From NCBI GenBank assembly GCA_963774955.1, contig CAVZGV010000003.1, forward strand, positions 192,771 to 256,770: 64,000 bases of DNA, read 5' to 3'. A model generated the notes under the pieces. The model was not told the DNA's origin. It saw only the letters and a program-made list of their open reading frames with translations, and did not search any database. This DNA is from Candidatus Falkowbacteria bacterium. Lineage in GTDB: Bacteria; Patescibacteriota; Patescibacteriia; CAIXNZ01. Each line of letters begins with the position of its first letter. Position 1 is the stretch's first letter. The translations under genes were made by a program, and so were the position numbers. Shown here one piece after another: positions 19,927-39,640 of this stretch.

Positions 19927-20400
19927 ATGGAAAATCCCCAGGGTTTTAAAAAGGAAATAAACGAGAAAGAAGGTGAGATAAAATTCACCATTAATACCAG
20001 GATTTATTCTTTAGCCGCTATTTATCAGGCAGCTTACTTTTTTTTAGATAAAGTTTATGTCTTTTTGGATGGTGATCCGAAAAAGGAAATTAAGGTTATG
20101 ATGAAAGTGAAAAGTGGGGAAGAAGGGTTGGTCAAAATTGCAGGGGAATTTTATAATGAACTTTTAAATCAGCTCTTGCGGGAAAAAGTCAGCTCAAGCA
20201 ATGCTAAAATCAGGGAGTATATTGTTTCTCAGGCGCTTTATAATGCCGTACCTAACGAGGTGGATGAATTATTAAAAGAGGTAGAAGAGGAAGATTGGCA
20301 GGAAGATCCTTTGGGGATAAGCAAGCCCTGGGAGGAAAAGAATGAGGAGGGAAAAAAGGGGAAGAAGGGTAAGGCGAGAAAGAAGGGAGGATCCAAGTAA
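19927..20400 (+). CDS. HxsD-like protein (His-Xaa-Ser system component)
   Basis: Contains FYNELLNQLLRE, close to the LLNDYxLRE signature that names the HxsD family. Lies adjacent to the HxsA-like peptide and radical SAM genes. Confidence 0.5.
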   Translation: MENPQGFKKEINEKEGEIKFTINTRIYSLAAIYQAAYFFLDKVYVFLDGDPKKEIKVMMKVKSGEEGLVKIAGEFYNELLNQLLREKVSSSNAKIREYIVSQALYNAVPNEVDELLKEVEEEDWQEDPLGISKPWEEKNEEGKKGKKGKARKKGGSK

Positions 20401-20401
20401 T

Positions 20402-20611
20402 ATGGAAATTATTAAGTTTAATAAGGATATTTACAATTTAAAAGCCATTGAAAAAGCCATTGAAGAATATAAAAAAATGGCTAATTTTACCGTAAAAGAG
20501 GTAGATGATTATTTTGAGGTCAGTCTTGATAAAATTGATCAGGAATTTCAGGGGGTAATTAAAAATGAGTTTGCTAATTATGTATCTGGGATTAATGAGC
20601 TAAAAGTATAA
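20402..20611 (+). CDS. Small protein (69 aa) resembling the N-terminal part of the preceding HxsD-like protein
   Basis: Good RBS (agaagggagga). Shares the pattern I-x-F-x-I...IY-x-L-x-AI with the upstream paralog. Confidence 0.4.
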   Translation: MEIIKFNKDIYNLKAIEKAIEEYKKMANFTVKEVDDYFEVSLDKIDQEFQGVIKNEFANYVSGINELKV

Positions 20612-23381: not shown

Positions 23382-23768
23382 ATGAAGAATAGACTGCCAC
23401 AATTAAAGAAAAAATTCCAGGAATTCCTTAATGATGAAGAAGGTAAGATCACCAAAAAGGACATTATTATGCTGGGAATCGGCGTAACTGCTTTGGGTAT
23501 TTTGGCGGAAGAGGCAACTGCTGCTACTCCGGCATGCGGAAGCGGATATACTGCGGCAGGACCGACGGCAGTCGGTCATAATCGTCAGAATCAACTTATT
23601 GCTGGAGGGGCTAGTCATTTTGGGCATAATAATTTTATTCACAATGAAGGAACCCAGGGATCGCATTGTTCACATGGTTCTCATGGTTCACACGGGTCGC
23701 ATGGCAGTCACGGGTCACATGGCAGTCATGGGTCACATGGTCATCATAGTAGTGGCAACTCATGTTAA
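23382..23768 (+). CDS. HxsA-like precursor: N-terminal charged region, one TM helix, C-terminal (His-Gly-Ser)n tail
   Basis: C-terminus is GSHCSHGSHGSHGSHGSHGSHGSHGHHSSGNSC. Start set at ATG 23382, downstream of the repeat element. The DNA encoding the HGS repeats uses varied codons. Confidence 0.7.
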   Translation: MKNRLPQLKKKFQEFLNDEEGKITKKDIIMLGIGVTALGILAEEATAATPACGSGYTAAGPTAVGHNRQNQLIAGGASHFGHNNFIHNEGTQGSHCSHGSHGSHGSHGSHGSHGSHGSHGHHSSGNSC

Positions 23769-23778: not shown

Positions 23779-24642
23779 ATGAATAATAGAATTTTTTTAA
23801 TTTTAATTGCAGTCATTGTCCTCCTATTCATTGGGGTAGGTGTTTTTTGGTTTTTGTATCAAGAACGAACTCCTTTACAGCCTAATTCAAATAAAACTGT
23901 TAATCAAAATATAAATGTAAATACTGACTATTGTTTAGCAAAAATAAAGGCCAATGAAGAGGACGCTTTTTCTATTTCTCGCAGGGAGTTTTATTCGGTT
24001 TTAAATTTTTATACTTTTTGTAAATATAATAATGATAAACAAAATATTATAGATAAATGTAAGAATTATTTCGGGGAGAGAAGAAGTAATTATTGTACGG
24101 ATAAATTCCCTTATTTAGTTATGCTTTATTATCTGAAGCTGGGACAAAAGATTGAATTTGTAAAAACATGCCAAGATTACACTTCGTTATCTCAAAATAA
24201 AAAAAATATAAGTTGTGATGAAATTTGGAATAAGGCCAATGATGCTAATTTAGAATTTTGTGATCAGGTGGATCGTTCCTGCGCCTACTTGGTTACCGAT
24301 TCTGAAAAAACATCATGTGCAAAAATTGTTAATTTGAGCACCCCAGTTGATAATATTCTAGATAATGATTGCCGCAATGAGATACAAATAAGAGCTGCCA
24401 CTTCTGCTCAAGATTGTTTGAGTATAAAGGATGATATTACCAAATTAATATGTTTGAGTGTTTATAGCAAAGACGCCTGTGACAGCGCCTTTGGTTTAAT
24501 AGACGAAAAGTGTCAAATTTTAGAGACAGGTAATTTGAAAAAATTTGAGGATAAATATTCATTAAATAACTGTTGTTATGAAAATGATCCTCAGCAAGGC
24601 GGGGAGGATGTCGGAGCCGTTTTATATGTCCAATTACAATAA
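23779..24642 (+). CDS. Membrane-anchored Cys-rich protein (287 aa, about 22 Cys)
   Basis: N-terminal TM anchor ILILIAVIVLLFIGVGVFWFL, then an extracytoplasmic domain with regularly spaced cysteines. Confidence 0.5.
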   Translation: MNNRIFLILIAVIVLLFIGVGVFWFLYQERTPLQPNSNKTVNQNINVNTDYCLAKIKANEEDAFSISRREFYSVLNFYTFCKYNNDKQNIIDKCKNYFGERRSNYCTDKFPYLVMLYYLKLGQKIEFVKTCQDYTSLSQNKKNISCDEIWNKANDANLEFCDQVDRSCAYLVTDSEKTSCAKIVNLSTPVDNILDNDCRNEIQIRAATSAQDCLSIKDDITKLICLSVYSKDACDSAFGLIDEKCQILETGNLKKFEDKYSLNNCCYENDPQQGGEDVGAVLYVQLQ

Positions 24643-25814: not shown

Positions 25815-25836
25815 ATTAAAATTTGGTATTAAATAA

Positions 25837-28137: not shown

Positions 28138-28997
28138 ATGCATTATTCATTAGATTTAAATTACAATTGCAATAATGATTGCCTTTTCTGTTTTAATAAA
28201 TATGATAAAAACAAGTCGTTTGATATTAAGCAGGTAAAAAAAGAAATTGATTGGGCGTCTAAAAATCAGTTTGATATTCTCGATTTTTATGGCGGGGAAC
28301 CGCTATTATATAAAGATGATTTGTTGGAAATTCTAAAGTATGCACATGCAATAAAGGGTTGAAATCCGGAATCGCTACAAATGCCACTTTTTTAGATGAT
28401 AAAATTGTTAAAATTTTCAATGAATTAGGGGTGGTTAATTGTAGAACAAGTATGCACGGCCATAATAAGGTATTGCATGACATGGTGACTCAAAGGAAAG
28501 GTAGCTTTGAAAAGACCTCTCGAGGAATTAATTCTTTGATTAACTATTTTAACGGGGAGATAATTATAAATATAGTCATTACCAAATTAAATTATAAATA
28601 TCTACCAGACATTGTTCTACATATATGTAAACTTGATCCTGGTAAGAAGGCGGCTATTAAGTTTTCCAATTTGATTTATAATCATAATAATGATGTTTAT
28701 AGAAAGATTGGCCTGTCTTTATCAGCCACCCAGCCGGTTGTGTATAAAGTAATCAAAAATATAGTTAAAGATAGAAAGTTTTATATTGAGAAATATCCTT
28801 ATTGTTTTTTAAAACCATTCTCTAAAAATTTTATAATAGAAAAAGATCTTGGCAGGGAAATTATATTTTGGCATAATGATTGCGCTGTCTGCAAATTCAA
28901 GAATAAGTCTTGTGTCGGATTAAATATCAATTATGTCAATTATATCCAGCCAGATATAGGTGAAATTAAAAAATTGAATAATTTTAAATATGAATAA
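28138..28997 (+). CDS. Short twitch/SPASM-type radical SAM enzyme, paralog 1, interrupted by a -1 frameshift at about 28355-28362
   Basis: CNNDCLFC, GGEPLL, TNATFLDD, NIVITKLNYKYL and a C-terminal CAVCKFKNKSCVG cluster. The break lies in an aaaggg run (ORFs 28138-28362 and 28359-28997). Confidence 0.65.
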
Positions 28998-30378
28998 GCT
29001 GAGAAAGTTATTAGGTCGCGAGCAGATCTCGAATGAAAAAAAACAATATATTAAGATAAACAATTACTGTAATAATAATTGTATTTTTTGCCTTGATTCT
29101 GCCAATCAGGAAAAGGCTCAGCGGATCAAAAAAACTTTCATATTTAAACAAATCAAAGATGGAAGGGCCGGGGGGGCTAATAAATTAATACTAAGCGGCG
29201 GCGAAGCTACAATTGATCCCTACTTCCTTGAATATGTTAAATTTGCCAAAACGAACGGTTATCATAAAATACAGGTTATTTCCAATGGCCGGATGTTTGC
29301 GTACGGTAAATTTGCTAAGCAGGCAATAGCGAATGGTTTGAATGAGATAACGATATCAATTCATGGGCATAATCAGAAGTTGTACGAAAAATTGACTAAT
29401 ATACCCGGATCATTTAAACAATTGTTAGCGGCATTAAATAATTTAAAACAATTTCCCGGGTTGATAATAAATATTGATATAGTGATCAATAAATTAAATT
29501 ATAAATATATTTATGAGATTATTAAATTTTATAGTAAAAATTGTGGTATTTTTGAATATGATTTACTTAATTTAACACCTGCCGGCCGCGCTTTAATTAA
29601 TAAAAAGATATTATTTATTAATTTGAAACTAGCTTTGAAGTATTTAAAGCCTGTTTTTAATCTGACGAAAAGGGATAGTCGGTTTTTTATATGGACTAAT
29701 AGGTTGCCTCCTAAATATTTAGAAGGGTATGAGTATTTAATCCAAGACCCTCATAAATTAATGGATGAGGTTTCGGGCCGTTATCAATCATTAAACAGTT
29801 TTTTGACCTTAGGGACTAAAATGAGTTGTCAGGATGATCTAAACTGCTCTTGGTGTTATTTGGATGATTTCTGTAAAAAGCTCAGGGACACTAAACAACT
29901 AAATAATTTTGAGTTTTTCCCCATAAAATCCATTAATGATGTTAGAAATGTTAGTGAACGCAAGTATTTTGTTGAGGTTGACAGGAAGAATTACAAGGAC
30001 ATCTTAGAAAATATTGAAGAATATAAAAAATATAATGTTTATTTTAAATTAAGAAATTTTAGCACTGTAAAAGAACTTGACCAGAAGGCTTTGCCTCTAA
30101 GTTTATTCAAAGAATATTTTGCGATGGATAAAGATATTAAATTTTTAGACTTTCCATTATGTTTGGTTAATAAACAGGCAAAAGTAGCGCAATTTTTGAA
30201 TTTGTCAAGAAATGCCGCTGATTTAGATTTAAAGCAATTTACCATGAATTATATAAGGGATTTATATTATATAAAAGCTTTAAAATGCGATCATTGTAGA
30301 TTTAATAAAAAATGTTCTGGCTGGCATATTAATTATGTGCGCTATTACGGGTTTAAAATTTTTAACCCAGTCATATGA
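28990..30378 (+). CDS. Radical SAM enzyme, paralog 2, with an about 170-aa C-terminal extension (462 aa)
   Basis: CNNNCIFC, SGGEATIDP, ISNGRMF, IDIVINKLNYKYIYEI. Terminal CDHCRFNKKCSGWH. Start overlaps the upstream stop (ATGAATAA). Confidence 0.75.
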   Translation: MNKLRKLLGREQISNEKKQYIKINNYCNNNCIFCLDSANQEKAQRIKKTFIFKQIKDGRAGGANKLILSGGEATIDPYFLEYVKFAKTNGYHKIQVISNGRMFAYGKFAKQAIANGLNEITISIHGHNQKLYEKLTNIPGSFKQLLAALNNLKQFPGLIINIDIVINKLNYKYIYEIIKFYSKNCGIFEYDLLNLTPAGRALINKKILFINLKLALKYLKPVFNLTKRDSRFFIWTNRLPPKYLEGYEYLIQDPHKLMDEVSGRYQSLNSFLTLGTKMSCQDDLNCSWCYLDDFCKKLRDTKQLNNFEFFPIKSINDVRNVSERKYFVEVDRKNYKDILENIEEYKKYNVYFKLRNFSTVKELDQKALPLSLFKEYFAMDKDIKFLDFPLCLVNKQAKVAQFLNLSRNAADLDLKQFTMNYIRDLYYIKALKCDHCRFNKKCSGWHINYVRYYGFKIFNPVI

Positions 30379-31736
30379 GTAAAATTGATTTTAATCAGCG
30401 GTTAAAATTTTTTAGAGATATTACTTATCGGTATAATTTAATATTCCCGACCGATTATTTATATCTTTCACCTAAAAAGGAATGGGGATTAGAGCAGATG
30501 ATGAATTTATGGCGATTTAATTTGAGAAATGTTAATAACCCATATGTTTCGCTTTATTTACATATCCCTTTTTGTCTCGAAAGAAGGTGCTCTTATTGTA
30601 TAAATTTATCTTCGGTATTGGAGTCCGGCTCCCAGCTCGAGCAATATTTGGATTATCTGAAAAAAACGATGTTAAACTATAGGAAAATATTTCCGACTAC
30701 AAAATTCAATACATTATATATAGGCGGAGGTACCCCCTCGATATTATCGCCAAAACAGTTGGATGATTTTTTAAAAACCATTAAGATTAATTTTAAATTT
30801 GAAAGTTCTGGCATGAAAACTATCGAGATGTCACCTGCTACTGCAAGTTATGAAAAAATAGATATTTGTAAAAGGCAAGGTATTAATCGCATAAGTATGG
30901 GGATTCAATCTTTGAACTGCAAGATTCTAGAATCAGTTAATAGATTCAATACTTTAGCCTATAATGAGTTACAGGATCTTTGTCGGTATGTTAATAGGAA
31001 GAAATTTGAAGATTTTAATTTGGATTTAATAATTGGCTTGCCTGGCGAAAATAATAAAAGTTTTTTAAATAACCTGACGCAATTATTAAAGTTAAATATT
31101 CCATCAATTACTGTTTATAAATATGTACATAAATATTTTGAGTCCGAAAAAAATACGCCAAAGTATTACGAAGAGCAATATTTAATCAAGTATAAAGATA
31201 TTATTAAAAATATAGGAGCTATATTGAAAAAGTATCATTATATTGAAGAAACGTCCGGGGCTGGAATTAATAATCTATTTCGTTTCGTAAAGAAAAACCA
31301 TAGCAAAAAACAGGATTATTTTTTGCAATGGAACTCACAATTAAATAATTCTGTTTTAGGTATCGGGAAAGGCTCTACCAGTCTTATACAAAATAAAGTC
31401 TTTGCCAATGAAGATTTTAACGTATCAGTAAATAACCTAGTATCAAGCAATGTTAAATATTCAGGTCACATATTTAATAAAGATGACCAAATTCGCAATT
31501 ATACAATTATGGAACTCTGGCGTAATCGGGCAATGGATTTTTCAGAATTCAAGAGGTTATTCGGGCTAGATTTTTACAGCTACTTTAAGGGGGAGCTAGA
31601 CTATTTGAGAATTCAAAATAAAGTAATAATTACCGATAAATACGTAGAGATTAAATTTAATGATATTTTGGATTTTGCAATTAATATAAAATTATTTTTT
31701 AATTTTTCTTATCTTAAAACTAACTATCAAACATAA
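30375..31736 (+). CDS. HemN/HemW-like radical SAM enzyme with a non-canonical CX4CX2C motif, paralog A (453 aa)
   Basis: LHIPFCLERRCSYC, LYIGGGTPS, INRISMGIQS, DLIIGLPGE. ATGA overlap with the upstream gene. Confidence 0.75.
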   Translation: MSKIDFNQRLKFFRDITYRYNLIFPTDYLYLSPKKEWGLEQMMNLWRFNLRNVNNPYVSLYLHIPFCLERRCSYCINLSSVLESGSQLEQYLDYLKKTMLNYRKIFPTTKFNTLYIGGGTPSILSPKQLDDFLKTIKINFKFESSGMKTIEMSPATASYEKIDICKRQGINRISMGIQSLNCKILESVNRFNTLAYNELQDLCRYVNRKKFEDFNLDLIIGLPGENNKSFLNNLTQLLKLNIPSITVYKYVHKYFESEKNTPKYYEEQYLIKYKDIIKNIGAILKKYHYIEETSGAGINNLFRFVKKNHSKKQDYFLQWNSQLNNSVLGIGKGSTSLIQNKVFANEDFNVSVNNLVSSNVKYSGHIFNKDDQIRNYTIMELWRNRAMDFSEFKRLFGLDFYSYFKGELDYLRIQNKVIITDKYVEIKFNDILDFAINIKLFFNFSYLKTNYQT

Positions 31737-31738
31737 TT

Positions 31739-32674
31739 ATGGCGAATTTGGGTTACATCCAATTGAATAGAACCTGTAATCAGCAGTGCCTGTTTTGCTC
31801 CAATCCGGAGAATGGGAACGTTTTATCATATTCAAAAGCTAGGTTTTATATTGATGATTTTATGAAAAACCGAGTTGACGGAATTATTTTTACCGGGGGT
31901 GAACCAACCTTAAACAAAAATTTAATAAGGCTTATAAGGTATTGTAAACAAAAAAACTTAGAATCCAGGATAATAACAAATGGACAACTTACTGCTGATT
32001 ACGATTTTATGCGAGAATTGAAGTTGTCTGGATTGAATTTGATTCATGTTTCCATCCATTCAGTAAAACCCCCAATACAAAATTATTTGAGCCAAAATTC
32101 TAATTCTTTTAGGAATATAATAGGAACTTTGCAAAACGCCAGAAAGCTCGGTGTGGAGGTTAATATTAATACTGTTATAAACAGATTTAATGCCAAAAAT
32201 TTGCATGAAAATATGCGTTTTTTTATCGTTAAATTCCCTGAAATTAAGCACTTTGTTTTTAATAATTTAGATCCTAAGATGAATCGGGTTGAGAAAAATA
32301 CCACTTTAATCCCTCGATTAGGGGATTTTAAAGATTCATTGTTGAAAGCTCTGACATTATTAAGCAAGAATGGAAAGACTTTCCGCGTTGAACGCGTCCC
32401 TTTATGTTATATGACGGAATTCGCAGAGTATTCAACTGAAACCAGGAAGATTATTAAGAATGAGGAACGTAGGATCTTATTTTTGGATGATCGACCTGAT
32501 AATTATAGTAAACAAGATTATTTCTTTTATGAAAAAGCAAAACAATGTAAAAAATGCAGCCTGAATGAAATATGTGCCGGATTATACGCTATGGATACAC
32601 ATTTTAGTAGTAAAGAATTGGAGCCCCAAGCAATTAATAAGAATATAATTATTAAAAGGATATTAAATGGCTAA
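31739..32674 (+). CDS. Short twitch/SPASM-type radical SAM enzyme, paralog 3 (311 aa)
   Basis: CNQQCLFC, FTGGEPTL, ITNGQL, NTVINRFNAKNL, C-terminal CKKCSLNEICAG. Confidence 0.8.
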   Translation: MANLGYIQLNRTCNQQCLFCSNPENGNVLSYSKARFYIDDFMKNRVDGIIFTGGEPTLNKNLIRLIRYCKQKNLESRIITNGQLTADYDFMRELKLSGLNLIHVSIHSVKPPIQNYLSQNSNSFRNIIGTLQNARKLGVEVNINTVINRFNAKNLHENMRFFIVKFPEIKHFVFNNLDPKMNRVEKNTTLIPRLGDFKDSLLKALTLLSKNGKTFRVERVPLCYMTEFAEYSTETRKIIKNEERRILFLDDRPDNYSKQDYFFYEKAKQCKKCSLNEICAGLYAMDTHFSSKELEPQAINKNIIIKRILNG

Positions 32675-33548
32675 AAGGATTGAAATATATGTAGGTTTTA
32701 AATGCAATAATAATTGTATTTTTTGCGTTGAATACTTTAGACGACAGAAGTTTAATGACTTGAAAGTATTACAAACTAATACTGAAATCAATGAACAGCT
32801 AAATAAATATCGTGAAGAAGGATATAGCCATTTAAATATATTGGGTGGAGAACCTTTCTTGGAGCCAAGTTTTTATAAAGTATTATCAAAAGCTAAGGGC
32901 TTAGGCTTCATTACCGCAGTTACAACTAATGGAAGTTTATTGTCAGATGAAAATATTGCCGTTAAAAATTTACCCTTAATAGATGATCTAATCTTATCTA
33001 TTCATGGTCATAATGAAGAAATAATCTCGAGACAGAGTCAGAATAAAAATTTATATGTCAATTTACAGGCAGCTTTTTTAAATATTAAAAAATATTTTAG
33101 AGGTCGAATTCTTAAAACCAATACTGTAATTAATAATTTAAATTATAAATATCTCTTAGATATTGTAAAATTTATTCAGAGGGCGGGAATCTCAGAAATT
33201 AGTTTAACCTATATGTCGATTGATGATCATAATAAAGAATTCTTGGTAAGTTTGGGTAGACTGCAGCCATATTTGGAAAAAGTAATGGAATATTGCAGCA
33301 ATAATGACTTGAGAATCAGGTTCGCTGATATTCCTTTATGTTTTTTGGGACAATACCCCCATCTAGATAATAGTTTATATTATGACAAACGACAGAAATA
33401 TGATGTGGATGGTAAGCTGATCGAACATTGTAGGCAAAAAACAAAAACAGAAAAATGTTCCGGCTGTATGTATGAAGGTATTTGCGAAGGGTTGGATCTT
33501 AGTTATTATAAAATATTCGGCGATTCAGAATTAATGCCAATTAGTTAA
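32667..33548 (+). CDS. Short twitch/SPASM-type radical SAM enzyme, paralog 4 (293 aa)
   Basis: CNNNCIFC, LGGEPFL, TTNGSLL, NTVINNLNYKYLLDIV, C-terminal CSGCMYEGICEG. Confidence 0.8.
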   Translation: MAKRIEIYVGFKCNNNCIFCVEYFRRQKFNDLKVLQTNTEINEQLNKYREEGYSHLNILGGEPFLEPSFYKVLSKAKGLGFITAVTTNGSLLSDENIAVKNLPLIDDLILSIHGHNEEIISRQSQNKNLYVNLQAAFLNIKKYFRGRILKTNTVINNLNYKYLLDIVKFIQRAGISEISLTYMSIDDHNKEFLVSLGRLQPYLEKVMEYCSNNDLRIRFADIPLCFLGQYPHLDNSLYYDKRQKYDVDGKLIEHCRQKTKTEKCSGCMYEGICEGLDLSYYKIFGDSELMPIS

Positions 33549-33554
33549 TTATAT

Positions 33555-34490
33555 ATGCATAATATTGAAATTAACATCGGTAATGCCTGTAATAATAAAT
33601 GCAGATTTTGTATGATAGAATATGAAGATAAAAGATGCTTCATTGCTTTTAATTTGATAAAAAAAGAGGTAATTAAGGCCAGGCGTCAGGCGTATGATTC
33701 GATTGGGTTTTTAGGCGGTGAATTTACTTTACATCCGGATTTGCTGAAAATAGTTAAATTATGTAAAATTTTAGGATATAAAACTATACATATAATTAGT
33801 AACGGCAGAAGATTTGCTGACTCTGAATTGTTGAGTGACCTGATAAAAAATGGTGTAAATAGATTTTCTGTTTCAGTTCATAGCCATGATCAGAAAGTTG
33901 ATGATTATTTGACTCAAAGTCGCGGAGGATTCAAACAAAAACTTCAGGGAATTAAGAATCTAATAAAATTTAGAAAAACCGGAAAAATCAGAAATTCTCT
34001 GTCAATAAATATAGTTATTAATAATTTGAATTACAAAGAAATAGTTAAGACTTTAAACTATTTTCACGGTCTGGGCATTGAAGATTTTAGGTTGAATTTT
34101 ATTTGGCTGCACGGACGTGCCCAGAGATACTCGGAACTTTACCTTAAATTTAGTGATTTTGTGCCATATATTAAGGATATTATTTCAGCCGCAAAGGAAC
34201 ATAAATATAATTTTTCTTTTGAGGGTATTCCGGCCTGTATTATAAATAGTGATGAGGCACTTAATTATTTAGGCGAGCTAAAAGATCAAGCTACTCAGGT
34301 AGTTGCCTATAATAATCCGAAACAGCTGAGGGAAAGCTTTAACTGGCAAAGCCGCAAAGCTAATGAGTTTAAAATTAAAAATGATAACTGCCAATTGTGC
34401 CATTGGAATAGTATCTGCGATGGTATCTGGCGAGATTATATAACAATTTATGGTTGGGACGAATTCCAGCCGAAGGAAAAAAACAATTAA
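33555..34490 (+). CDS. Short twitch/SPASM-type radical SAM enzyme, paralog 5 (311 aa)
   Basis: CNNKCRFC, LGGEFTL, ISNGRRF, NIVINNLNYKEIV, C-terminal CQLCHWNSICDG. Ends YGWDEFQP. Confidence 0.8.
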   Translation: MHNIEINIGNACNNKCRFCMIEYEDKRCFIAFNLIKKEVIKARRQAYDSIGFLGGEFTLHPDLLKIVKLCKILGYKTIHIISNGRRFADSELLSDLIKNGVNRFSVSVHSHDQKVDDYLTQSRGGFKQKLQGIKNLIKFRKTGKIRNSLSINIVINNLNYKEIVKTLNYFHGLGIEDFRLNFIWLHGRAQRYSELYLKFSDFVPYIKDIISAAKEHKYNFSFEGIPACIINSDEALNYLGELKDQATQVVAYNNPKQLRESFNWQSRKANEFKIKNDNCQLCHWNSICDGIWRDYITIYGWDEFQPKEKNN

Positions 34491-34509
34491 TTTTTTTATA
34501 TATACGCGG

Positions 34510-35844
34510 ATGTTAACTATTAAGAGAAAAATCGAAGAATTCAATAGGCTCTTTCAGAACAATCAGTGTTGGGATTTGGATCTTCTTAAAAATTATCTGA
34601 TTAGGGCAGAAGTAAGGTTCAGCGCACAGGATGTAAGAAAAATGTGGGGTAGGGGGCTCAAAACATTAAGCAAACAGCCTGATAAGAACTTGAATATGTA
34701 TATCAGTATGCCTTTTTGTTTAGATAATAAGTGCGCCTATTGCCGTCATCAGTCTTTGATTGCCAGCAGTTCTGTTATTGATTTATATATAATTTATTTA
34801 ATCAATTCTTTGAAATATTATAAGGATATTTTTAAAAATTTTGTTTTCAATAATTTGTATATAGGGGGCGGGACACCTAGTATTCTAACAAACAAACAAT
34901 TACAGATAATTTTAAATGAAATTTTCAATGATTATGATTTCGATCCTTCTGGGGAAAAAACTTTTGAATGCAATCCCAATACAATTAATTTGGAAAAATT
35001 AATGATTGTCAAGAACTTCGGCTTTAATAGAATAAGCATCGGCGTGCAATCTTTAGATGAAAAGGTGTTGTCGTCGGCTAAAAGGAACAACCAATCATAT
35101 AACGATGTTCAAAACGCAATTGTTAATGCGCAAACGTGTAATTTCCCAGTAATAAATGTAGATTTGATGCTCGGGCTTGCAAACCAAACATTGGAATCTC
35201 TGGTTAAAACCTGCTTGCAGATTATAAAATTTAGACCCGATAATATGTTTATTTATAAGTATAAGCCGCAAGAAGGTCATTATGGCAATTATATTAAGCA
35301 GTCGCAGGATAAATATTTTAAAAGGTTAAATAATTTTTGCCAAAGATTTTCCGTGGTATTGAAGTCTGATAAAAAAGTCAATTCAGTTTATTTTGTTACG
35401 GAGAATGATAATTTCTTTAGATTACGTTTGAAAACCGGTCCCCGTATAAAAATTAGCACCCCTTATGTTTTATATGGTGATAGGCCTTTTAATTATGTAT
35501 TTGGGGTAGGACAGTTTGCTATTTCAAAAATTTATTCAATATTTCAGGGGGAAGAGTTGTCTAAAAATTTCTTTTTTAAACCTCGGCTAAAAAATATAAG
35601 AGGTTCGTTTGTATCTCAAACTGATGAAATGAAAAGTTATATTTTGAACTCTCTTGACCGTTATGATTCAGTAATAAATAAAACTGAATTTGAAAAAAAT
35701 TTTGGTCAAGACATATCCCTGTCTTTCAAAGGGGAGCTTGAATATTTCCAAAATAATAATTTGTTAGTTCTGGATAATGAAAGGGTAATTTTTAAATTTA
35801 AAACACCCAAAGAGAAGTTTTTAGCTGCCTTTCTTTTTATTTAA
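34510..35844 (+). CDS. HemN/HemW-like radical SAM enzyme with CX4CX2C, paralog B (about 444 aa)
   Basis: SMPFCLDNKCAYC, LYIGGGTPSIL, FNRISIGVQS, DLMLGLANQT. Start set at ATG 34510, after the upstream stop at 34490. Confidence 0.75.
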   Translation: MLTIKRKIEEFNRLFQNNQCWDLDLLKNYLIRAEVRFSAQDVRKMWGRGLKTLSKQPDKNLNMYISMPFCLDNKCAYCRHQSLIASSSVIDLYIIYLINSLKYYKDIFKNFVFNNLYIGGGTPSILTNKQLQIILNEIFNDYDFDPSGEKTFECNPNTINLEKLMIVKNFGFNRISIGVQSLDEKVLSSAKRNNQSYNDVQNAIVNAQTCNFPVINVDLMLGLANQTLESLVKTCLQIIKFRPDNMFIYKYKPQEGHYGNYIKQSQDKYFKRLNNFCQRFSVVLKSDKKVNSVYFVTENDNFFRLRLKTGPRIKISTPYVLYGDRPFNYVFGVGQFAISKIYSIFQGEELSKNFFFKPRLKNIRGSFVSQTDEMKSYILNSLDRYDSVINKTEFEKNFGQDISLSFKGELEYFQNNNLLVLDNERVIFKFKTPKEKFLAAFLFI

Positions 35845-35849
35845 ATTTT

Positions 35850-35990
35850 ATGTCTTTAGCTAGAAATATGCCCAATGATGTTATTAAAATTGATGATCAA
35901 TTCGAAATGGCAAAATCTATGGGGAATACTTTATTGCAGTATGCTAGACGTTTTTTGAATATCGATTTAATTTATTATAAAATTATATAA
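35850..35990 (+). CDS. Small ORF (46 aa, MSLARNMPNDVIKIDDQFEMAKSMGNTLLQYARRFLNIDLIYYKII) immediately upstream of a radical SAM gene; a speculative precursor or accessory peptide
   Basis: Fills the only sizeable gap (about 150 bp) inside the radical SAM array. Its stop lies 2 nt before the next ATG. No homology evidence. Confidence 0.2.
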   Translation: MSLARNMPNDVIKIDDQFEMAKSMGNTLLQYARRFLNIDLIYYKII

Positions 35991-35992
35991 CT

Positions 35993-37807
35993 ATGGATAG
36001 GATTGATTTGAAAATTTGCTTTCAATGCAATAATCTTTGTGAATTTTGTGTGCAGGGAGATAAGAGGGAGCGTCTTGCTAATAAAAGTCTTGAAGAAATT
36101 AAAAAAGCGCTAAGGGAGGCGAGGCAGGAAAATATCGAAGGTGTTGTTTTTACAGGTGGCGAACCTACTGTCCATCCCGATATTTTAAAGGTAGTGGAGT
36201 ATGCCCAGAAAGCTGGATTTAAAAGTATCCAGTTGCAAACTAATGGACGTATGTTCTCGTATTTAGATTTTTGTAAAAAAATAATTTCAGCAGGAGCGAG
36301 TGAATTTTCGCCAGCATTGCATAGTTCTGTGCCAGAAATTCACGATAAATTAACAAATAGTCCGGGGGCCTGGCAGCAGGTAGTAAAGGGGATTAGAAAT
36401 TTGAAAAGTTTAAATCAATATGTCCTTACTAATACCGTTATTACCTCTTTGAATTATAAGGATTTTCCGGAATTGGCTAAATTATTTGTCAGATTGAATG
36501 TTGATCAGTTTCAGTTTGCTTATGTTCATATAATTGGCACCGCCTTTAAAAATAAGGAATGGCTGATTCCCCGAAAAAGCGAAGTGATGCCTTATGTTAG
36601 GAAGGGTTTAGATATCGGTATCTTCGCCGGTAAAAAAGTAATGACCGAGGCGATACCTTATTGTTTTATGTCTGGTTATGAAGATTATATTGCCGAAAAA
36701 AATATTCCGGAAACAAAAGTCGTGGCTGAAAATACAATTGATGATTTTAATTATTTTCGGAAAAACGTTGGGAAATTGAAGTCCGCTACCTGTAAGATTT
36801 GCGGTTATTATAATATTTGCGAGGGGCCCTGGAAAGAGTACCCTGAAATTTTTGGCTGGGATGAATTTAAGCCGGTAATAAAATTACCGCCTCATTTTGA
36901 AAAACTGGAAAATTATGACAAGAAATTAATTCAGGTAGTTGGACAGGCTTATAATCTTGGGGAGATAGTTGCTGTCTATAAATATGTCAAACGCAGCATT
37001 AATAATGCTCATTTGTTTGTGTTTCAAGCTAAAATAGTGATAGCAAAATTATCAAAAACAAAGACGCCAGAAAAGATAAATGCGGAACAAAATGTGCTGA
37101 GTATTTTTCTGAAAAAAGGTTTACTTTTCCCGGCGATGTTAAAAACTGTTAAAGGTGATTTTTATCTAAAATACAAACAAAGTTATATCCGTTTGTACGA
37201 GTATGTTCAGGGTTCAAACAATGTTCATTATTTTAATTATCTGGATAAGATTTTGAATTATTTTATTTTTTGCGTACAAAGCAAAGATAAATTCAATAAG
37301 TTTTATAATCGAGAAGCAGTTTTATTTAAACTAGACAAGAAAATTGCTAATGCTTTAAAATTAACTAAAAAATTTAATCACTCGGATAATAAATACTTAG
37401 TGGGCCTGCTGGGCGATTCTGAGAATATTTTAAATAATATAAGGAGTTCTGATGTAATTATACCATTGCACTTTCTGGAATTAGTTTTGAACGAAAAGGG
37501 GCTATATTTTTTGGAATCAGAACACTTGATCGAAAATTTTTTTCCTTCTTCTTACGTCCTGGCGAGATATATATTAAAAGTATTAACTCAAGAAAATCAA
37601 ATTTTAAATATTGATGAGCTTGTGAGAATAGTTTTCACGAAAACCAATTTAGCCCAAGAGAAAAAAACTGCCGTGAATCTTCTCTTGACAATTGATTTAT
37701 TGCGTAGGATTTATAATTATAAAAAATATAATAAGGATACGAGAAATAAATATAAGAAATATTATCGAGATTTAATCATTGGGTTTAATGTTAAATTTAG
37801 TCAGTAA
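35993..37807 (+). CDS. Radical SAM enzyme, paralog 6, with an about 300-aa C-terminal extension of unknown function (604 aa)
   Basis: CNNLCEFC, FTGGEPTV, QTNGRMF, NTVITSLNYKDF, CKICGYYNICEGPW, FGWDEFKP. The C-terminal half has no recognisable domain. Confidence 0.75.
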   Translation: MDRIDLKICFQCNNLCEFCVQGDKRERLANKSLEEIKKALREARQENIEGVVFTGGEPTVHPDILKVVEYAQKAGFKSIQLQTNGRMFSYLDFCKKIISAGASEFSPALHSSVPEIHDKLTNSPGAWQQVVKGIRNLKSLNQYVLTNTVITSLNYKDFPELAKLFVRLNVDQFQFAYVHIIGTAFKNKEWLIPRKSEVMPYVRKGLDIGIFAGKKVMTEAIPYCFMSGYEDYIAEKNIPETKVVAENTIDDFNYFRKNVGKLKSATCKICGYYNICEGPWKEYPEIFGWDEFKPVIKLPPHFEKLENYDKKLIQVVGQAYNLGEIVAVYKYVKRSINNAHLFVFQAKIVIAKLSKTKTPEKINAEQNVLSIFLKKGLLFPAMLKTVKGDFYLKYKQSYIRLYEYVQGSNNVHYFNYLDKILNYFIFCVQSKDKFNKFYNREAVLFKLDKKIANALKLTKKFNHSDNKYLVGLLGDSENILNNIRSSDVIIPLHFLELVLNEKGLYFLESEHLIENFFPSSYVLARYILKVLTQENQILNIDELVRIVFTKTNLAQEKKTAVNLLLTIDLLRRIYNYKKYNKDTRNKYKKYYRDLIIGFNVKFSQ

Positions 37808-39284
37808 ATTTATTGTCGTTATTGTTTTGGCCATCGGATCCATTGTTTGTTTTGAAGATTTTAAATTTGGCAAAATTCGTAACAAGTGGATTAAGCTTGG
37901 GGCTCTTTTGGGCTTTTTGTTTTATTTTGTCTGCGGGATAATAACTATTTTATATAATTTAAATATTGTTAATTTTAGTTTTTACTTGGCAGATTATTAT
38001 CTGTTAGTTTTTTATAATACTCTAATTGCATTTATTTTGGGATTTATCCTCTGGTACTTTAAACTCTGGGCCGGTGGGGATGCTAAATTATTTACTCTTT
38101 ATGCATTTTTAATCCCATTGGAATTTTACGGTAACTGGTATTTTAAATATTGGCCGGCTTTGACTTTATTAATAAATATTATCCTGCCGATTTTTGTTTA
38201 TCTGTTGATTAAATTTTTACTTTATCCGATTAAACTGGGCATTAATTATTTGAAAAATCCGCGCTTGCTGGCCGAGTATTGCGGCAAATTTAAACAAGGA
38301 ACTGAATTTGATAAAACTAAAATAAAGACTTATATTAATGTTGCCTTAAGCTTTATCGTGATTTTAATATTTTTTCAGATTTTGAGGTCGCGGTTGGGTG
38401 ATTTGCTGACTCCATATCTTGGCCAGCTGCTCGTAGGCTTTTATTTTTTGATCGGTTTTGTGGTTTTTCAGCCCCTGCGAAAATTATTGCAAAAAAAAGA
38501 GTTATTGGTTTCTGTTTTGATCGCAGTATATTTTATTGCCGGCGCAATTTTTTTCAGGGAGACTGTTTTTGTTGATTTCCATAAAATATTTGCGCTGCAG
38601 TTTATTTTAATATTGTCATATTATTATATTTTTAAATACGGCCAGACATTGGGAAGATTTTTGTATAATTCAGCCGAGGTTAAAATGGTTCCTGCGGCAG
38701 AAATCGTAGCCGGAATGTATATCAATAAGGATTATATTCGCCAAATTTTAGGTTCCCGCTATAATTTTGAAGCATCAAAAAAGGAAATTTCTGCAAACTT
38801 AAATCCCGAGGAGGTAGCGCAATTGGAGAATATTTTAAAGTCCCGACAAAATGCAGCCGATAAATATTCTCGGTTACTCTCATCTTTGAGCCGTTTTAGC
38901 TTATCTTCAGTGCCGACTTTAATCCAACAGCTGTGGCAATTAAAACAGGAGAAAAAAATAGTGGCAAGTTTATTGGAAAAGATTAACGCCAAGCTGGATC
39001 AGGAACAAAAGGTTAAACTCCACAATTTATTAAATAAGCTTGATGAGAACCAAGTGTTTTTAAAATCCCTTAAAGGCAAATTAACCGTTGAACAGGCGAA
39101 TGATTTAAAAATCATAATTGCCAAGCGCAATCAGGAGGTTGTAAGTCAGGGCTTGGCACCTGTAGATACCATTATTCTGCATAAAACTTTTTCCTTTGCG
39201 CCCTGGATGCTTTTGGGGGTGATTATTACTTTGGTAACCAGAAGTTCATTGATCCATCTAATTTATCAATTATTTGGCAGGTAG
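37788..39284 (+). CDS. Polytopic membrane protein with an N-terminal A24 prepilin-peptidase-like domain (TadV/CpaA/FlaK family) and a long C-terminal coiled-coil region
   Basis: Two catalytic-Asp motifs characteristic of A24 aspartic peptidases: EDFKFGKIRN (D-x5-I-[P/R]-N) and WAGGDAKLFTLYAF (GGD-[AV]-KL). About 8 TM helices. Overlaps the preceding radical SAM gene by about 20 nt. Confidence 0.55.
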   Translation: MLNLVSKFIVVIVLAIGSIVCFEDFKFGKIRNKWIKLGALLGFLFYFVCGIITILYNLNIVNFSFYLADYYLLVFYNTLIAFILGFILWYFKLWAGGDAKLFTLYAFLIPLEFYGNWYFKYWPALTLLINIILPIFVYLLIKFLLYPIKLGINYLKNPRLLAEYCGKFKQGTEFDKTKIKTYINVALSFIVILIFFQILRSRLGDLLTPYLGQLLVGFYFLIGFVVFQPLRKLLQKKELLVSVLIAVYFIAGAIFFRETVFVDFHKIFALQFILILSYYYIFKYGQTLGRFLYNSAEVKMVPAAEIVAGMYINKDYIRQILGSRYNFEASKKEISANLNPEEVAQLENILKSRQNAADKYSRLLSSLSRFSLSSVPTLIQQLWQLKQEKKIVASLLEKINAKLDQEQKVKLHNLLNKLDENQVFLKSLKGKLTVEQANDLKIIIAKRNQEVVSQGLAPVDTIILHKTFSFAPWMLLGVIITLVTRSSLIHLIYQLFGR

Positions 39285-39400
39285 CATCTGGAGGCGTAAG
39301 TGGTTAAGATGCTTTTATATCCAACGGACTTTACAAGTAAATGTTTCCGATATATAATATATTTACTAATATTATTCTCAGTATATAAAATAAAAATATT

Positions 39401-39640
39401 ATGTTAGAAAATAAGGATTTACAACGAATTGGCCAAATTTTTGATGAGAAACTAGATCCTGTTAAGGCTAGTCTGAATTCTTTGGCAATGGAATTAGCAG
39501 ATATGAAAGCGACTTTAGCAAAAATTGATAAAAGAACTGATGAAGATACAACTGCTGCTTATGGGGAAATTGAGAAATTGAAAAAGAGAATCAGTTCTGT
39601 CGAAGAACAGATGAGAATTTTGCAAGCTCAAAAAGCCTAA
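39401..39640 (+). CDS. Small coiled-coil protein (79 aa)
   Basis: ORF followed by a strong terminator. Heptad-like K/E-rich sequence. Confidence 0.45.
   Translation: MLENKDLQRIGQIFDEKLDPVKASLNSLAMELADMKATLAKIDKRTDEDTTAAYGEIEKLKKRISSVEEQMRILQAQKA

What the first reader, a model, noticed from the sequence alone, without database searches (positions are those of the whole stretch)
37788..39284. Prepilin-peptidase (A24)-like domain fused to a large membrane/coiled-coil protein at the end of the rSAM array
The N-terminal about 150 aa contain both catalytic aspartate motifs of type IV prepilin/preflagellin peptidases (TadV/CpaA/FlaK): D-x5-I-R-N and GGDAKL. They lie within TM helices. The protein then continues for about 350 aa with more TM segments and an amphipathic coiled-coil region.

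The gene overlaps the last rSAM gene. An intramembrane aspartic peptidase co-operonic with peptide-modifying rSAM enzymes could be the leader or signal-processing protease for their substrate. For example, it could cleave the charged N-terminus plus TM of the HxsA-like peptide. Canonical RiPP clusters do not have this arrangement.
Basis: partly seen in the sequence, partly recalled or inferred. Interest (0 to 1): 0.6.

Follow-up and report, generated by a model that had tools for sequence, protein, structure and literature searches.

The report
Pilin-type peptidase dedicated to His-Xaa-Ser systems
The gene encodes a divergent membrane-embedded aspartic peptidase of the prepilin/preflagellin peptidase kind that, in hundreds of tiny-celled bacteria and archaea, sits not with pilus genes but inside radical-SAM "His-Xaa-Ser" gene clusters, so it is probably the missing enzyme that trims the leader off that system's modified protein.

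Summary
ORF 37788-39284 (+) encodes a 498-aa, roughly 10-TM protein. It carries D24 (EDFKFGKIRN) and D98 (WAGGDAKL) at the predicted cytoplasmic ends of TM1 and TM4, and it overlaps the last rSAM gene by 20 nt.

Alone it scores below Pfam's A24 threshold (19.7 vs 26.5 bits). Its family settles the assignment:
- 111 of 129 diverse relatives hit PF01478.
- 26 of 129 also hit Arc_PepC, the FlaK C-terminal domain.
- D24, D98, K100 and P110 are invariant in 183 of 183 members.

So this is not an A24 domain fused to an unrelated protein. It is a FlaK-like architecture expanded by four extra TM helices and a roughly 105-aa helical insert.

The clade is small (about 1,600 clusters at 50% identity). 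It is tied to His-Xaa-Ser (Hxs) rSAM systems: 67 of 79 species-level loci from Patescibacteria, DPANN archaea and Omnitrophota carry HxsB, HxsD or HxsC-like genes next to it, with a median gap of 327 bp. The window itself holds HxsD, HxsB and an HxsA-like precursor.

These precursors share a leader, PKIKKKxxxFLxxEEG|KISK, followed by one hydrophobic helix. That the peptidase cleaves it, probably after the invariant Gly, is inference and is untested. I rate it a new variant of a known kind, with interest 0.68.

The parts
37788..39284 (+). Gene for the Hxs-associated A24-like intramembrane aspartic peptidase (498 aa from the ATG; 501 aa from the TTG at 37779).
   Evidence: ORF. About 30 full-length homologues at 42-81% identity. 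Family-level PF01478 hits. The gene overlaps the upstream rSAM gene.
37788..38255 (+). A24 catalytic core, residues 1-156 (TM1-TM5).
   Evidence: The Pfam PF01478 match covers aa 13-136 and profile positions 3-101 of 104. The AF2 model of residues 1-160 has pLDDT 88.4 and pTM 0.74, with helices 2-27, 32-57, 68-90, 96-108 and 123-156.
37854..37889 (+). First aspartate motif, E23-D24-FKFGKIRNKW. The D24 codon is at 37857-37859.
   Evidence: D24 is invariant in 183 of 183 members, and K29, I30 and N32 are nearly invariant. hhalign places D24 opposite Asp1 of the canonical PilD motif (YDLKHYIIPD), but only weakly, at E=0.11.
38067..38093 (+). Second aspartate motif, W94-AGG-D98-AKLF. This is a GxGD-like motif; the family consensus is W[AST][AG]GD[AG]KLF. 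The D98 codon is at 38079-38081.
   Evidence: D98 and K100 are invariant in 183 of 183 members, and G97 is present in 173 of 183.
38313..38672 (+). Four additional TM helices (residues about 176-295), inserted relative to six-TM A24 enzymes.
   Evidence: Hydropathy and AF2 helices 176-211, 214-235, 238-255 and 257-295. The segment is present but poorly conserved in the short relatives.
38673..39182 (+). Cytoplasmic soluble domain (residues about 296-465). It is Arc_PepC-like and is interrupted by a roughly 105-aa helical or coiled-coil insert (residues about 320-425, nt about 38745-39062).
   Evidence: PF06819 Arc_PepC is hit by 26 of 129 family members (best E=3.1e-7), and the hits map just before the last TM helix. 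The insert is seen only in the roughly 500-aa subfamily. The region has 27 K/R, so it is predicted to be cytoplasmic.
39183..39284 (+). Last TM helix, carrying H465-K-T-F-S-F-A-P-W-M-L-L-G. It is the counterpart of the EIPFGPFL helix of canonical prepilin peptidases.
   Evidence: F470 is invariant in A2, and F470 and A471 are nearly invariant (90% or more) in A7. The helix is conserved even in 313-383-aa relatives that lack the soluble domain. The canonical PilD in L032 ends ...SEIPFGPFLVTG.
19927..20611 (+). HxsD (19927-20400) and an HxsD-like protein (20402-20611). This is the start of the Hxs cluster.
   Evidence: TIGR03976 scores 63.1 bits against a cut-off of 50. NF038315 scores 65.1 against a cut-off of 41.
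21133..22635 (+). HxsB, the rSAM/SPASM maturase.
   Evidence: TIGR03978 scores 521.6 bits against a cut-off of 370. Pfam finds Radical_SAM plus SPASM.
23382..23768 (+). HxsA3/A4-like precursor (128 aa from M37 of the ORF that starts at 23274). It comprises the leader MKNRLPQLKKKFQEFLNDEEG|KITKK, one hydrophobic helix, and GSH/HxS repeats. This is the proposed substrate; the invariant Gly codon is at 23442-23444.
   Evidence: Sub-threshold NF038309 match on the N-terminus and NF038313 match on the C-terminus. The same leader occurs in 27 other loci that hold the A24-like gene.
23779..24642 (+). Conserved 287-aa membrane-anchored, Cys-rich protein directly after the precursor.
   Evidence: It has no family hit. 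Orthologues sit at the same position in L001 (tblastn 3e-21) and L005.
28990..37807 (+). Array of seven intact rSAM genes leading into the target gene: HxsC/HxsC4-like genes at 28990, 31739, 32667, 33555 and 35993, and HemN-like genes at 30375 and 34450.
   Evidence: NCBIfam and Pfam hits, all below the HxsC and HxsC4 cut-offs. The genes are tightly packed or overlapping.

Best explanation
The gene encodes an active, divergent member of the A24 (GxGD-type) intramembrane aspartic peptidases. It belongs to a small clade that has been recruited from pilin or archaellin processing to serve variant His-Xaa-Ser (Hxs) radical-SAM systems.

**Proposed mechanism**
1. The HxsA3/A4-type precursor inserts into the membrane with its roughly 20-residue basic leader (…PKIKKKxxxFLxxEEG) in the cytoplasm and its single hydrophobic helix in the membrane.
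2. The leader and the HxS-repeat region are handled by the cytoplasmic HxsB, HxsD and HxsC-like enzymes.
3. The peptidase has both Asp at the cytoplasmic membrane face. It removes the leader, most probably after the invariant Gly (EEG|KISK), as prepilin peptidases do after the conserved Gly of class III signal peptides.
4. The His-rich product is left outside the cell, either membrane-anchored or further released at an AxA-like site.

**Shown here**
- Homology to A24.
- Conservation of the catalytic residues.
- Predicted topology.
- Operon position.
- Gene-neighbourhood linkage across phyla and domains.
- Co-occurrence of the conserved leader.

**Inferred**
- Proteolytic activity.
- The identity of the substrate.
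- The cleavage site.

**My confidence for each step**

| Step | Confidence |
|---|---|
| A24 homologue with intact active site | about 0.9 |
| Functional component of the Hxs system | about 0.85 |
| Substrate is the HxsA-like precursor | about 0.6 |
| Cleavage is after the invariant Gly | about 0.4 |
For: **A24 identity**
- PF01478 is hit by 27 of 34 relatives and by 111 of 129 relatives. Three short members exceed the GA.
- Arc_PepC is hit by 26 of 129 relatives.
- D24, D98, K100 and P110 are invariant in 183 of 183 members.
- Both Asp lie at the cytoplasmic ends of TM helices. This is the arrangement published for FlaK and the type IV prepilin peptidases (PMC4985597; PMC4471445).

**Linkage to Hxs systems**
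- 67 of 79 loci from GTDB species representatives have HxsB, HxsD or HxsC-like genes. The nearest such gene is a median of 327 bp away and lies on the same strand in 63 loci.
- The linkage holds where the other flank differs: NrdR/NrdD in L005 and RadA in the archaeal L006.
- Two recurrent gene orders are seen: A24like-HxsD-HxsB-HxsA, or the A24-like gene as the last gene after the rSAM array.
- The window itself has bona fide HxsD and HxsB.

**A separate paralogue, not the housekeeping enzyme**
- L032 holds a canonical PilD as well as the Hxs-linked gene.
- The clade has only about 1,615 clusters at 50% identity.

**Substrate logic**
- The conserved leader has invariant P, E and G ahead of a single hydrophobic helix, and occurs in 28 sources (27 loci plus the window) that all hold the A24-like gene.
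- In E. coli HXS, HxsA undergoes a non-canonical N-terminal cleavage whose protease is unknown (PMC13128918).
Against: **No direct evidence.** There is no biochemical evidence for any step.

**Weak or absent similarity signals**
- The window protein alone is below Pfam's threshold.
- Profile-profile comparison with bacterial PilD is weak, at E=0.11.

**The precursor is not a textbook class III signal peptide**
- Six to ten polar residues separate the invariant Gly from the hydrophobic stretch.
- Positions -2 and -3 are acidic rather than basic.
- Glu5 is not conserved.
- Pfam finds no Flp or class III signal in the precursors.

**Other readings of the leader**
- Many precursors also have an AxA-like site after the hydrophobic stretch. 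Signal peptidase I could therefore release them without an A24 enzyme.
- The conserved leader could be only the recognition element for the maturases.

**The reverse association is incomplete.** Starting from the leader, only 6 of 16 metagenome loci of at least 10 kb show the A24-like gene within reach. L133 has none within 10 kb on either side.
Confidence: 0.55

Rival explanations
1. It is the organism's ordinary prepilin, Flp or pseudopilin peptidase serving type IV pili, and it lies next to the rSAM array by chance or by inherited synteny.
For: Some database entries name relatives 'prepilin peptidase'. In the closest relatives the downstream genes (CysRS, Dus, CorA) are also syntenic.
Against: - The linkage to Hxs genes persists where the synteny is broken, and it extends into archaea.
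- L032 carries a canonical PilD with the PF06750 N-terminal domain in addition to this gene.
- The clade is tiny compared with the PilD family: 1,615 clusters, against more than 5,800 hits for a single PilD query.
- The window has no pilin or Flp motif.
Confidence: 0.05
2. It is an active protease of the Hxs system but acts on something other than the precursor's N-terminal leader. One option is that it clears the membrane-embedded signal-peptide remnant after signal peptidase I cuts at the AxA-like site, a role like that of signal peptide peptidase. Another is that it processes the conserved 287-aa membrane-anchored Cys-rich protein (23779-24642).
For: - AxA-like sites follow the hydrophobic stretch in many precursors.
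- The Cys-rich membrane protein is conserved next to the precursor.
- The polar spacer between the Gly and the helix is atypical for A24 substrates (PMC4471445).
Against: - The Cys-rich protein has no Gly before its helix, and it is absent from the minimal archaeal modules that consist of the A24-like gene, HxsD, HxsB and the precursor.
- Known A24 enzymes cut at the cytoplasmic face, not within helices.
- The element that travels with the peptidase across lineages is the leader.
Confidence: 0.2
3. It is not primarily a protease. The roughly 10-TM protein would instead be a membrane dock or export conduit. It would hold the precursor and the rSAM enzymes at the membrane through its cytoplasmic domain and help move the modified C-terminal part across.
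For: - The protein has four extra TM helices and a large cytoplasmic domain that are absent from minimal A24 enzymes.
- The E. coli study proposes that Hxs proteins act as dedicated chaperones or accessory translocators (PMC13128918).
Against: - The complete invariance of both Asp, of the Lys after the second Asp and of P110 in 183 of 183 members argues for retained catalysis.
- The extra helices and the soluble domain are the least conserved parts. The soluble domain is missing altogether in some members (P0032, P0033).
Confidence: 0.1

Closest known systems
FlaK/PibD-type archaeal preflagellin and prepilin peptidases (MEROPS A24B; Pfam PF01478 + PF06819 Arc_PepC; FlaK structure reported by Hu et al. 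2011, as cited in PMC4985597)
   Same: - Two catalytic Asp sit at the cytoplasmic membrane face, the second in a GxGD-like motif followed by Lys.
- There is no N-terminal Cys-rich or methyltransferase domain.
- A cytoplasmic soluble domain lies between the catalytic helices and the last TM helix; 26 of 129 family members match Arc_PepC.
- The likely substrate has a hydrophilic leader ending in Gly, followed by one hydrophobic helix.
   Different: - It has about 10 TM helices instead of 6.
- The D-3 position of GxGD is Ala, Ser or Thr.
- The roughly 500-aa subfamily has a 105-aa helical insert.
- No sequence or Foldseek match to solved structures was obtained.
- The genomic partners are Hxs radical-SAM genes, not archaellin or pilin genes.
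TadV/CpaA-type Flp prepilin peptidases (A24 enzymes without a methyltransferase domain)
   Same: - It is a stand-alone A24 core.
- From my own recollection, not tested here, Flp leaders end in a motif like F-x-x-D-E-x-G. That resembles the F-L-x-x-E-E-G of the Hxs leaders.
   Different: - No Flp/Fap Pfam signal is found in the precursors.
- After the Gly the Hxs precursors have a polar KISKxS stretch instead of the xTAIEY hydrophobic start.
- No tad genes are nearby.
PilD/PulO bifunctional prepilin peptidases (PF06750 + PF01478)
   Same: It has the same superfamily core and a C-terminal PF(G/A)P helix.
   Different: - It lacks the Cys-rich N-terminal domain.
- The profile-profile match is only E=0.11.
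- It co-exists as a separate paralogue with a canonical PilD in L032.
Four-gene HXS antiphage system of Pseudomonadota (HxsD-HxsB-HxsC-HxsA; PMC13128918)
   Same: - HxsD and HxsB are present above the curated cut-offs.
- There is a His-Xaa-Ser repeat protein with an N-terminal export or anchor signal.
- In E. coli the effector is N-terminally processed by an unidentified protease.
   Different: - The precursor has a different, longer leader of HxsA3/A4 type and no peptidoglycan-binding domain.
- The rSAM array is much expanded, with 7 intact genes plus fragments.
- An A24-like peptidase gene is part of the cluster. The paper describes more than 99.8% of systems as four genes, with 99.7% in Pseudomonadota.

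Membership tests
Peptidase A24 (type IV prepilin/preflagellin peptidases, Pfam PF01478) | The window protein itself reaches the curated Pfam gathering score. | tested here: not met
   It scores 19.7 bits (E=1.2e-3) against a cut-off of 26.5, although the match spans profile positions 3-101 of 104.
Peptidase A24 (type IV prepilin/preflagellin peptidases, Pfam PF01478) | The homologous family consistently matches the A24 profile. | tested here: met
   27 of 34 relatives (best E=8.7e-7) and 111 of 129 relatives (best E=9.7e-10) match. P0031, P0165 and P0172 exceed the cut-off with 29.4-30.7 bits.
Peptidase A24 (type IV prepilin/preflagellin peptidases, Pfam PF01478) | Two conserved catalytic aspartates, the second in a GxGD motif. 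| tested here: met
   D24 and D98 are invariant in 183 of 183 members. The motif is W[AST][AG]GD[AG]K, so the first Gly of GxGD is replaced by Ala, Ser or Thr.
Peptidase A24 (type IV prepilin/preflagellin peptidases, Pfam PF01478) | A polytopic membrane protein with both Asp at the cytoplasmic face. | tested here: met
   This is prediction only. It rests on hydropathy with the positive-inside rule and on AF2 helices. D24 is followed by a loop with 5 K/R, and D98 lies at the start of TM4 after a short loop that contains K92.
Peptidase A24 (type IV prepilin/preflagellin peptidases, Pfam PF01478) | Fold similarity to a solved A24 structure (FlaK). | tested here: inconclusive
Peptidase A24 (type IV prepilin/preflagellin peptidases, Pfam PF01478) | Cleaves a class III signal peptide after the conserved Gly. 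| not testable with these tools
   This needs an in vivo or cell-free cleavage assay.
Peptidase A24 (type IV prepilin/preflagellin peptidases, Pfam PF01478) | Genomic or functional association with type IV pilins, pseudopilins or archaellins. | tested here: not met
   The window has no pilin or Flp motif. The neighbours in 67 of 79 loci are Hxs-type genes.
FlaK-type architecture (PF01478 + PF06819 Arc_PepC) | An Arc_PepC domain lies between the catalytic core and the last TM helix. | tested here: inconclusive
   26 of 129 family members hit PF06819 (best E=3.1e-7), and the hits map before the last TM helix. The window protein gives no hit, because its domain is split by a roughly 105-aa insert.
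His-Xaa-Ser (Hxs) radical-SAM system | HxsB maturase and HxsD are present. | tested here: met
   TIGR03978 scores 521.6 against a cut-off of 370. TIGR03976 scores 63.1 against a cut-off of 50. NF038315 scores 65.1 against a cut-off of 41.
His-Xaa-Ser (Hxs) radical-SAM system | An HxsA repeat protein is present. | tested here: inconclusive
   Nine H-x-S units are visible in ORF 23274-23768. However, the NCBIfam scores are below the cut-offs: HxsA3 at 38.9 against 65, and HxsA4 at 42.9 against 55. A relative in L024 passes HxsA4 with 61.2 against 55.
His-Xaa-Ser (Hxs) radical-SAM system | An HxsC maturase is present, in the four-gene D-B-C-A organisation. | tested here: not met
   All HxsC and HxsC4 matches are far below the cut-offs; the best are 137 against 500 and 103 against 268. 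The cluster has 7 intact rSAM genes plus fragments plus the peptidase, whereas the published systems have four genes.
Class III (type IV pilin-like) signal peptide, asked of the HxsA3/A4 precursors | A hydrophilic leader of 6-26 aa ending in a conserved Gly. | tested here: met
   The leader is about 20 aa, and its Gly is invariant in 27 of 27 sequences. The definition comes from PMC4471445.
Class III (type IV pilin-like) signal peptide, asked of the HxsA3/A4 precursors | About 21 hydrophobic residues directly after the Gly, with Glu at +5. | tested here: not met
   Six to ten polar residues (KISKxSxxK) intervene. The hydrophobic stretch is about 15-18 residues, and position +5 is variable. No Pfam pilin or Flp hit was found.

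The most novel reading that the evidence does not exclude
A prepilin-peptidase-type (GxGD) intramembrane protease has been recruited as the dedicated leader peptidase of a radical-SAM-modified protein system. This clade would be the 'missing' processing enzyme of variant His-Xaa-Ser systems in Patescibacteria (CPR bacteria) and DPANN archaea. It would define a new substrate class for A24 enzymes, with the motif EEG|KISK followed by a single helix. It would also give a handle on how HxsA-type antiphage effectors are matured and placed on the cell surface of monoderm, ultra-small cells.
Probability: 0.5. Interest if true: 0.78.

Novelty: new variant of a known kind. Interest (0 to 1): 0.68.

Why it matters
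**A new substrate class for A24 peptidases.** These enzymes are known almost only as processors of type IV pilins, pseudopilins and archaellins. A conserved clade wired into a peptide- or protein-modifying radical-SAM system would broaden what they do. It would also add a new kind of leader peptidase to RiPP-like pathways, which normally use soluble or ABC-transporter-linked proteases.

**A link to an open question about HXS.** The His-Xaa-Ser system was shown in 2026 to be an antiphage system in E. coli. Its effector needs an unexplained, non-canonical N-terminal cleavage (PMC13128918). That study found the system almost only in Pseudomonadota. The loci described here show elaborate relatives in CPR bacteria and DPANN archaea that carry their own candidate protease.

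**Directly testable.** The prediction can be checked by co-expressing the peptidase and the precursor, mutating D24, D98 and the invariant Gly, and reading the N-terminus by mass spectrometry.

**Annotation.** The family has no NCBIfam model, and most members are labelled hypothetical.

Tried and rejected
**Searches that gave nothing**
- Sequence searches of the PDB with the protein, the family profile and the N-terminal profile found only coiled-coil noise. A canonical PilD profile also misses FlaK, so this test has no power.
- Foldseek of the full AF2 model (pLDDT 79.4) and of the N-terminal model (pLDDT 88.4) against the PDB found no significant hits.
- hhalign against a Patescibacteria PilD profile gave only a 36-38-column match at E=0.11-0.18, although it is in register at Asp1.
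- The exact-sequence contig look-up for the window protein failed.
- Pfam on the precursors found no Flp or class III hit.
- PADLOC had no hit for the peptidase.
- Literature searches for an A24-rSAM or A24-Hxs connection found none. Subscription-only papers are not covered.

**A test with limited power**
- I ran the reverse test from the leader peptide to the peptidase in metagenome contigs. Only 9 of 50 loci, and 6 of 16 loci of at least 10 kb, hold the gene.
- This is weakened by short contigs and by the 10-kb flank. In the window itself the two genes are 14 kb apart, and several arrays run off the locus end.

**Ideas rejected**
- The housekeeping PilD idea, for the reasons given under the rival explanations.
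- The 'fusion to an unrelated coiled-coil protein' idea, because the C-terminal helix and the soluble domain belong to the A24/FlaK architecture.
- A recoded genetic code as the cause of the broken rSAM genes at 24.7-29.0 kb. The breaks are frameshifts, with TGA, TAA and TAG stops mixed.

Full report
**1. What is in the sequence**

The ORF at 37788-39284 (+) has an ATG start, with an alternative TTG at 37779. It encodes 498-501 aa. It overlaps the stop of the preceding rSAM gene (35993-37807) by 20-29 nt.

The scan found no terminator-like site in the junction between the two genes. The best promoter-like site in the region (39330-39358, 11 of 12 matches) and a strong terminator (39669-39682) lie after the target's stop, around a small downstream ORF. 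These are consensus matches only. They fit the gene being the last cistron of the rSAM operon.

Hydropathy, the positive-inside rule and two AF2 models agree on the layout. The full-length model has pLDDT 79.4, and the model of residues 1-160 has pLDDT 88.4 and pTM 0.74.
- TM1 spans residues 2-27, with D24 at its cytoplasmic end. A loop with five K/R follows.
- TM2 and TM3 follow.
- TM4 starts at D98, after a short cytoplasmic loop.
- TM5 spans 123-156.
- Four more helices lie between about 176 and 295.
- A soluble, mostly helical region spans about 296-465. It has 27 K/R and is predicted to be cytoplasmic.
- A final TM helix spans 470-492.

**2. Is it an A24 peptidase?**

On its own the protein is below Pfam's threshold for PF01478. 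It scores 19.7 bits at E=1.2e-3 against a cut-off of 26.5, although the match covers almost the whole profile. NCBIfam has no model for it.

The family decides the matter.
- About 30 full-length homologues at 42-81% identity exist in Patescibacteria, plus shorter relatives of 313-409 aa.
- A profile of the N-terminal 160 residues finds 1,615 clusters (at 50% identity) among 1.84 billion proteins, and 1,013 of them at E≤1e-10. Typical lengths are 300-430 aa.
- Scanned one by one, 27 of 34 close relatives and 111 of 129 distant relatives hit PF01478, with a best E-value of 9.7e-10. Several exceed the gathering score.
- 26 of 129 also hit PF06819 Arc_PepC, the C-terminal domain of archaeal FlaK-type A24 enzymes. 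The hits map to the soluble region just before the last TM helix.
- D24, D98, K100 and P110 are invariant in 183 of 183 members.

The last helix (HKTFSFAPWMLLG) is conserved even in relatives that have no soluble domain at all. It mirrors the ...EIPFGPFLVTG helix of a canonical PilD that happens to lie in locus L032.

Published work describes FlaK as six TM helices plus a solvent-exposed β domain, with both Asp on the cytoplasmic side (PMC4985597).

So the protein is best read as a FlaK-like A24 enzyme carrying two additions: four inserted TM helices, and a roughly 105-aa helical insert in the cytoplasmic domain that is found only in the roughly 500-aa Parcubacteria subfamily. It is not an A24 domain fused to an unrelated protein.

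Other comparisons were weak or unavailable.
- hhalign against a PilD profile gave E=0.11, although it was in register at Asp1.
- PDB sequence searches and Foldseek gave nothing.
- A PilD profile also misses FlaK by sequence, so these negatives carry little weight.

**3. The neighbourhood is a His-Xaa-Ser system**

Upstream in the window lie the following:
- HxsD at 19927-20400 (63.1 bits against a cut-off of 50).
- An HxsD-like protein at 20402-20611 (65.1 against 41).
- HxsB at 21133-22635 (521.6 against 370).
- A His-Xaa-Ser repeat precursor at 23382-23768, with sub-threshold matches to HxsA3 and HxsA4.
- A conserved Cys-rich membrane protein at 23779-24642.
- Frameshifted rSAM fragments at about 24718-28997.
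- Seven intact HxsC/HxsC4-like and HemN-like rSAM genes, running up to 37807.

**4. The linkage is conserved far beyond local synteny**

In the closest relatives both flanks are syntenic: the rSAM array upstream, and CysRS, Dus and CorA downstream. That alone proves little.

Distant relatives tell more.
- In L005 a 323-aa relative ends an rSAM array but is followed by NrdR and NrdD.
- In a Nanoarchaeota contig (L006) a 383-aa relative directly precedes HxsD, an HxsD-like gene, HxsB and a 75-aa precursor.

A scan of one genome per GTDB species found 170 relatives. The 79 loci fetched come from records labelled Patescibacteria lineages, Woesearchaeota, Nanoarchaeota, Aenigmatarchaeota, Omnitrophota and Schekmanbacteria, plus a few labelled Myxococcota or Planctomycetes.
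- 67 of the 79 contain HxsB, HxsD or HxsC-like genes.
- The nearest such gene is a median of 327 bp away and lies on the same strand in 63 loci.
- Several of the loci without such genes are cut off close to the gene.
- CysRS is found only in the nearest subfamily.

Two gene orders recur. Either the order is A24like-HxsD-HxsB-HxsA, or the A24-like gene is last after an HxsC-like array.

L032 also carries a canonical PilD with the PF06750 domain, so the Hxs-linked gene is a separate paralogue. The window has no pilin or Flp motifs.

**5. The likely substrate**

In 28 sources (27 loci plus the window) that hold the A24-like gene, a small ORF carries the same N-terminal leader. The consensus is xxK(I/L)PK(I/L)KKK(I/V)xxFLxxEEGKI(S/T)Kx. 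P, E and G are invariant, and K-K, F, I and K are nearly invariant.

After the leader come 6-10 polar residues, then a Gly/Ala-rich hydrophobic stretch of about 15-18 residues, and then the core. The core is usually HxS repeats ending in SW or SY. Sometimes it is a different sequence, such as Cys-Gly repeats in L062.

One relative passes NCBIfam's HxsA4 cut-off, with 61.2 bits against 55.

By the positive-inside rule the basic leader stays in the cytoplasm and the repeats face outward. Prepilins have the same topology. Prepilin peptidases cut after a conserved Gly at the cytoplasmic face, and that Gly is the one critical residue (PMC4471445).

I therefore propose cleavage after the invariant Gly (EEG|KISK). 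The fit to a class III signal peptide is only partial, because of the polar spacer, the acidic residues at -2 and -3, and the lack of a conserved Glu5.

Many precursors also carry an AxA-like site after the hydrophobic stretch. That could be a second cleavage site, or an alternative one used by signal peptidase I.

The reverse test, from leader to peptidase in metagenome contigs, recovered the gene in 9 of 50 loci, and in 6 of 16 loci of at least 10 kb. At least one locus (L133) has none within reach.

**6. Comparison with what is known**

The four-gene HXS system of E. coli was reported in 2026 as an antiphage system. [quoted passage not shown] No protease was identified.
- 99.7% of the systems found were in Pseudomonadota.
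- More than 99.8% consisted of four genes (PMC13128918).

No paper in the searchable library links an A24 peptidase with Hxs or with rSAM/RiPP maturation. PADLOC 2.0 has no model for the protein.

The protein works like, and by family-level evidence belongs to, the A24 peptidases. It does not meet the usual biological context of that family, since there are no pilins. It also belongs to an expanded variant of the Hxs system rather than the canonical one.

**7. Verdict**

| Question | Verdict |
|---|---|
| Observation | Confirmed |
| Interpretation | Largely right on identity and operon logic, wrong on 'fusion', unproven on substrate |
| Novelty | New variant of a known kind: a distinct A24 clade with a new genomic partner and probably a new substrate class |
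| Interest | 0.68 |

The finding gives a concrete candidate for an open step in Hxs effector maturation, and it extends that system to CPR bacteria and DPANN archaea. Every mechanistic step beyond homology and linkage is inference.

Noticed in passing
window 24718-28997: Three or four rSAM genes directly after the precursor are broken into overlapping fragments in different frames, with TGA, TAA and TAG stops mixed. The seven rSAM genes that follow are intact. The fragments are probably pseudogenes, or possibly local assembly errors. The orthologous position in L001 has an intact 378-aa rSAM gene.
   Followed up: partly
window 20686-21033 and 22798-23184: Two small genes unrelated to Hxs chemistry sit inside the cluster. 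One is a 23S rRNA-intervening-sequence protein (PF05635, 62 bits). The other is a PD-(D/E)XK nuclease-superfamily PDDEXK_3 protein (PF13366, 101 bits). They lie between HxsD and HxsB, and between HxsB and HxsA.
   Followed up: partly
window 36893-37807: The last rSAM protein (604 aa) carries a 304-aa C-terminal extension with no Pfam hit. The extension is conserved in some relatives (tblastn 2e-21 in L001, 2e-26 in L008, 7e-17 in L013). In L003 it is replaced by separate genes: an rSAM-HD fusion and a weak PEP-utilizers protein.
   Followed up: partly
window 39401-39640: A 79-aa coiled-coil ORF lies just downstream. The best promoter-like site of the region (39330-39358) precedes it, and a strong terminator-like hairpin (39669-39682) follows it. 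It is conserved at the same place in L003/L016, L008, L009 and L017. Its function is unknown.
   Followed up: partly
window 23779-24642; L001 1477-2337; L005 259-1149: A membrane-anchored, Cys-rich protein of about 290 aa with no family assignment always follows the HxsA-like precursor in the Parcubacteria-type clusters.
   Followed up: partly
L004 1300-5166 and 6831-9100: In this relative, the rSAM array upstream of the peptidase contains other genes. There is a NifH-like ATPase with two nitrogenase-component-like (Oxidored_nitro) genes, and there are two glycosyltransferases.
   Followed up: no
L062 5470-5709; L064, L034, L046 and L086 precursors: Some peptides carry the same EEGK-type leader but have cores without His-Xaa-Ser repeats, for example CGCGCGCGCGC in L062. 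The leader-plus-peptidase module may therefore serve several core types.
   Followed up: no
L024 3809-4258 and 12153-12413; L073 5575-6081 and 7070-7552; L122 2755 and 7604: Several loci encode two precursor paralogues with the same leader.
   Followed up: no
L006 640-4707: The archaeal locus has a 1,355-aa RadA/Rad51 gene interrupted by two inteins with LAGLIDADG domains, upstream of the peptidase homologue.
   Followed up: no
window 17721-19892: A 723-aa secreted-looking protein with a Laminin_G_3 (concanavalin-like) domain and a Cys-rich C-terminus lies immediately upstream of HxsD.
   Followed up: no
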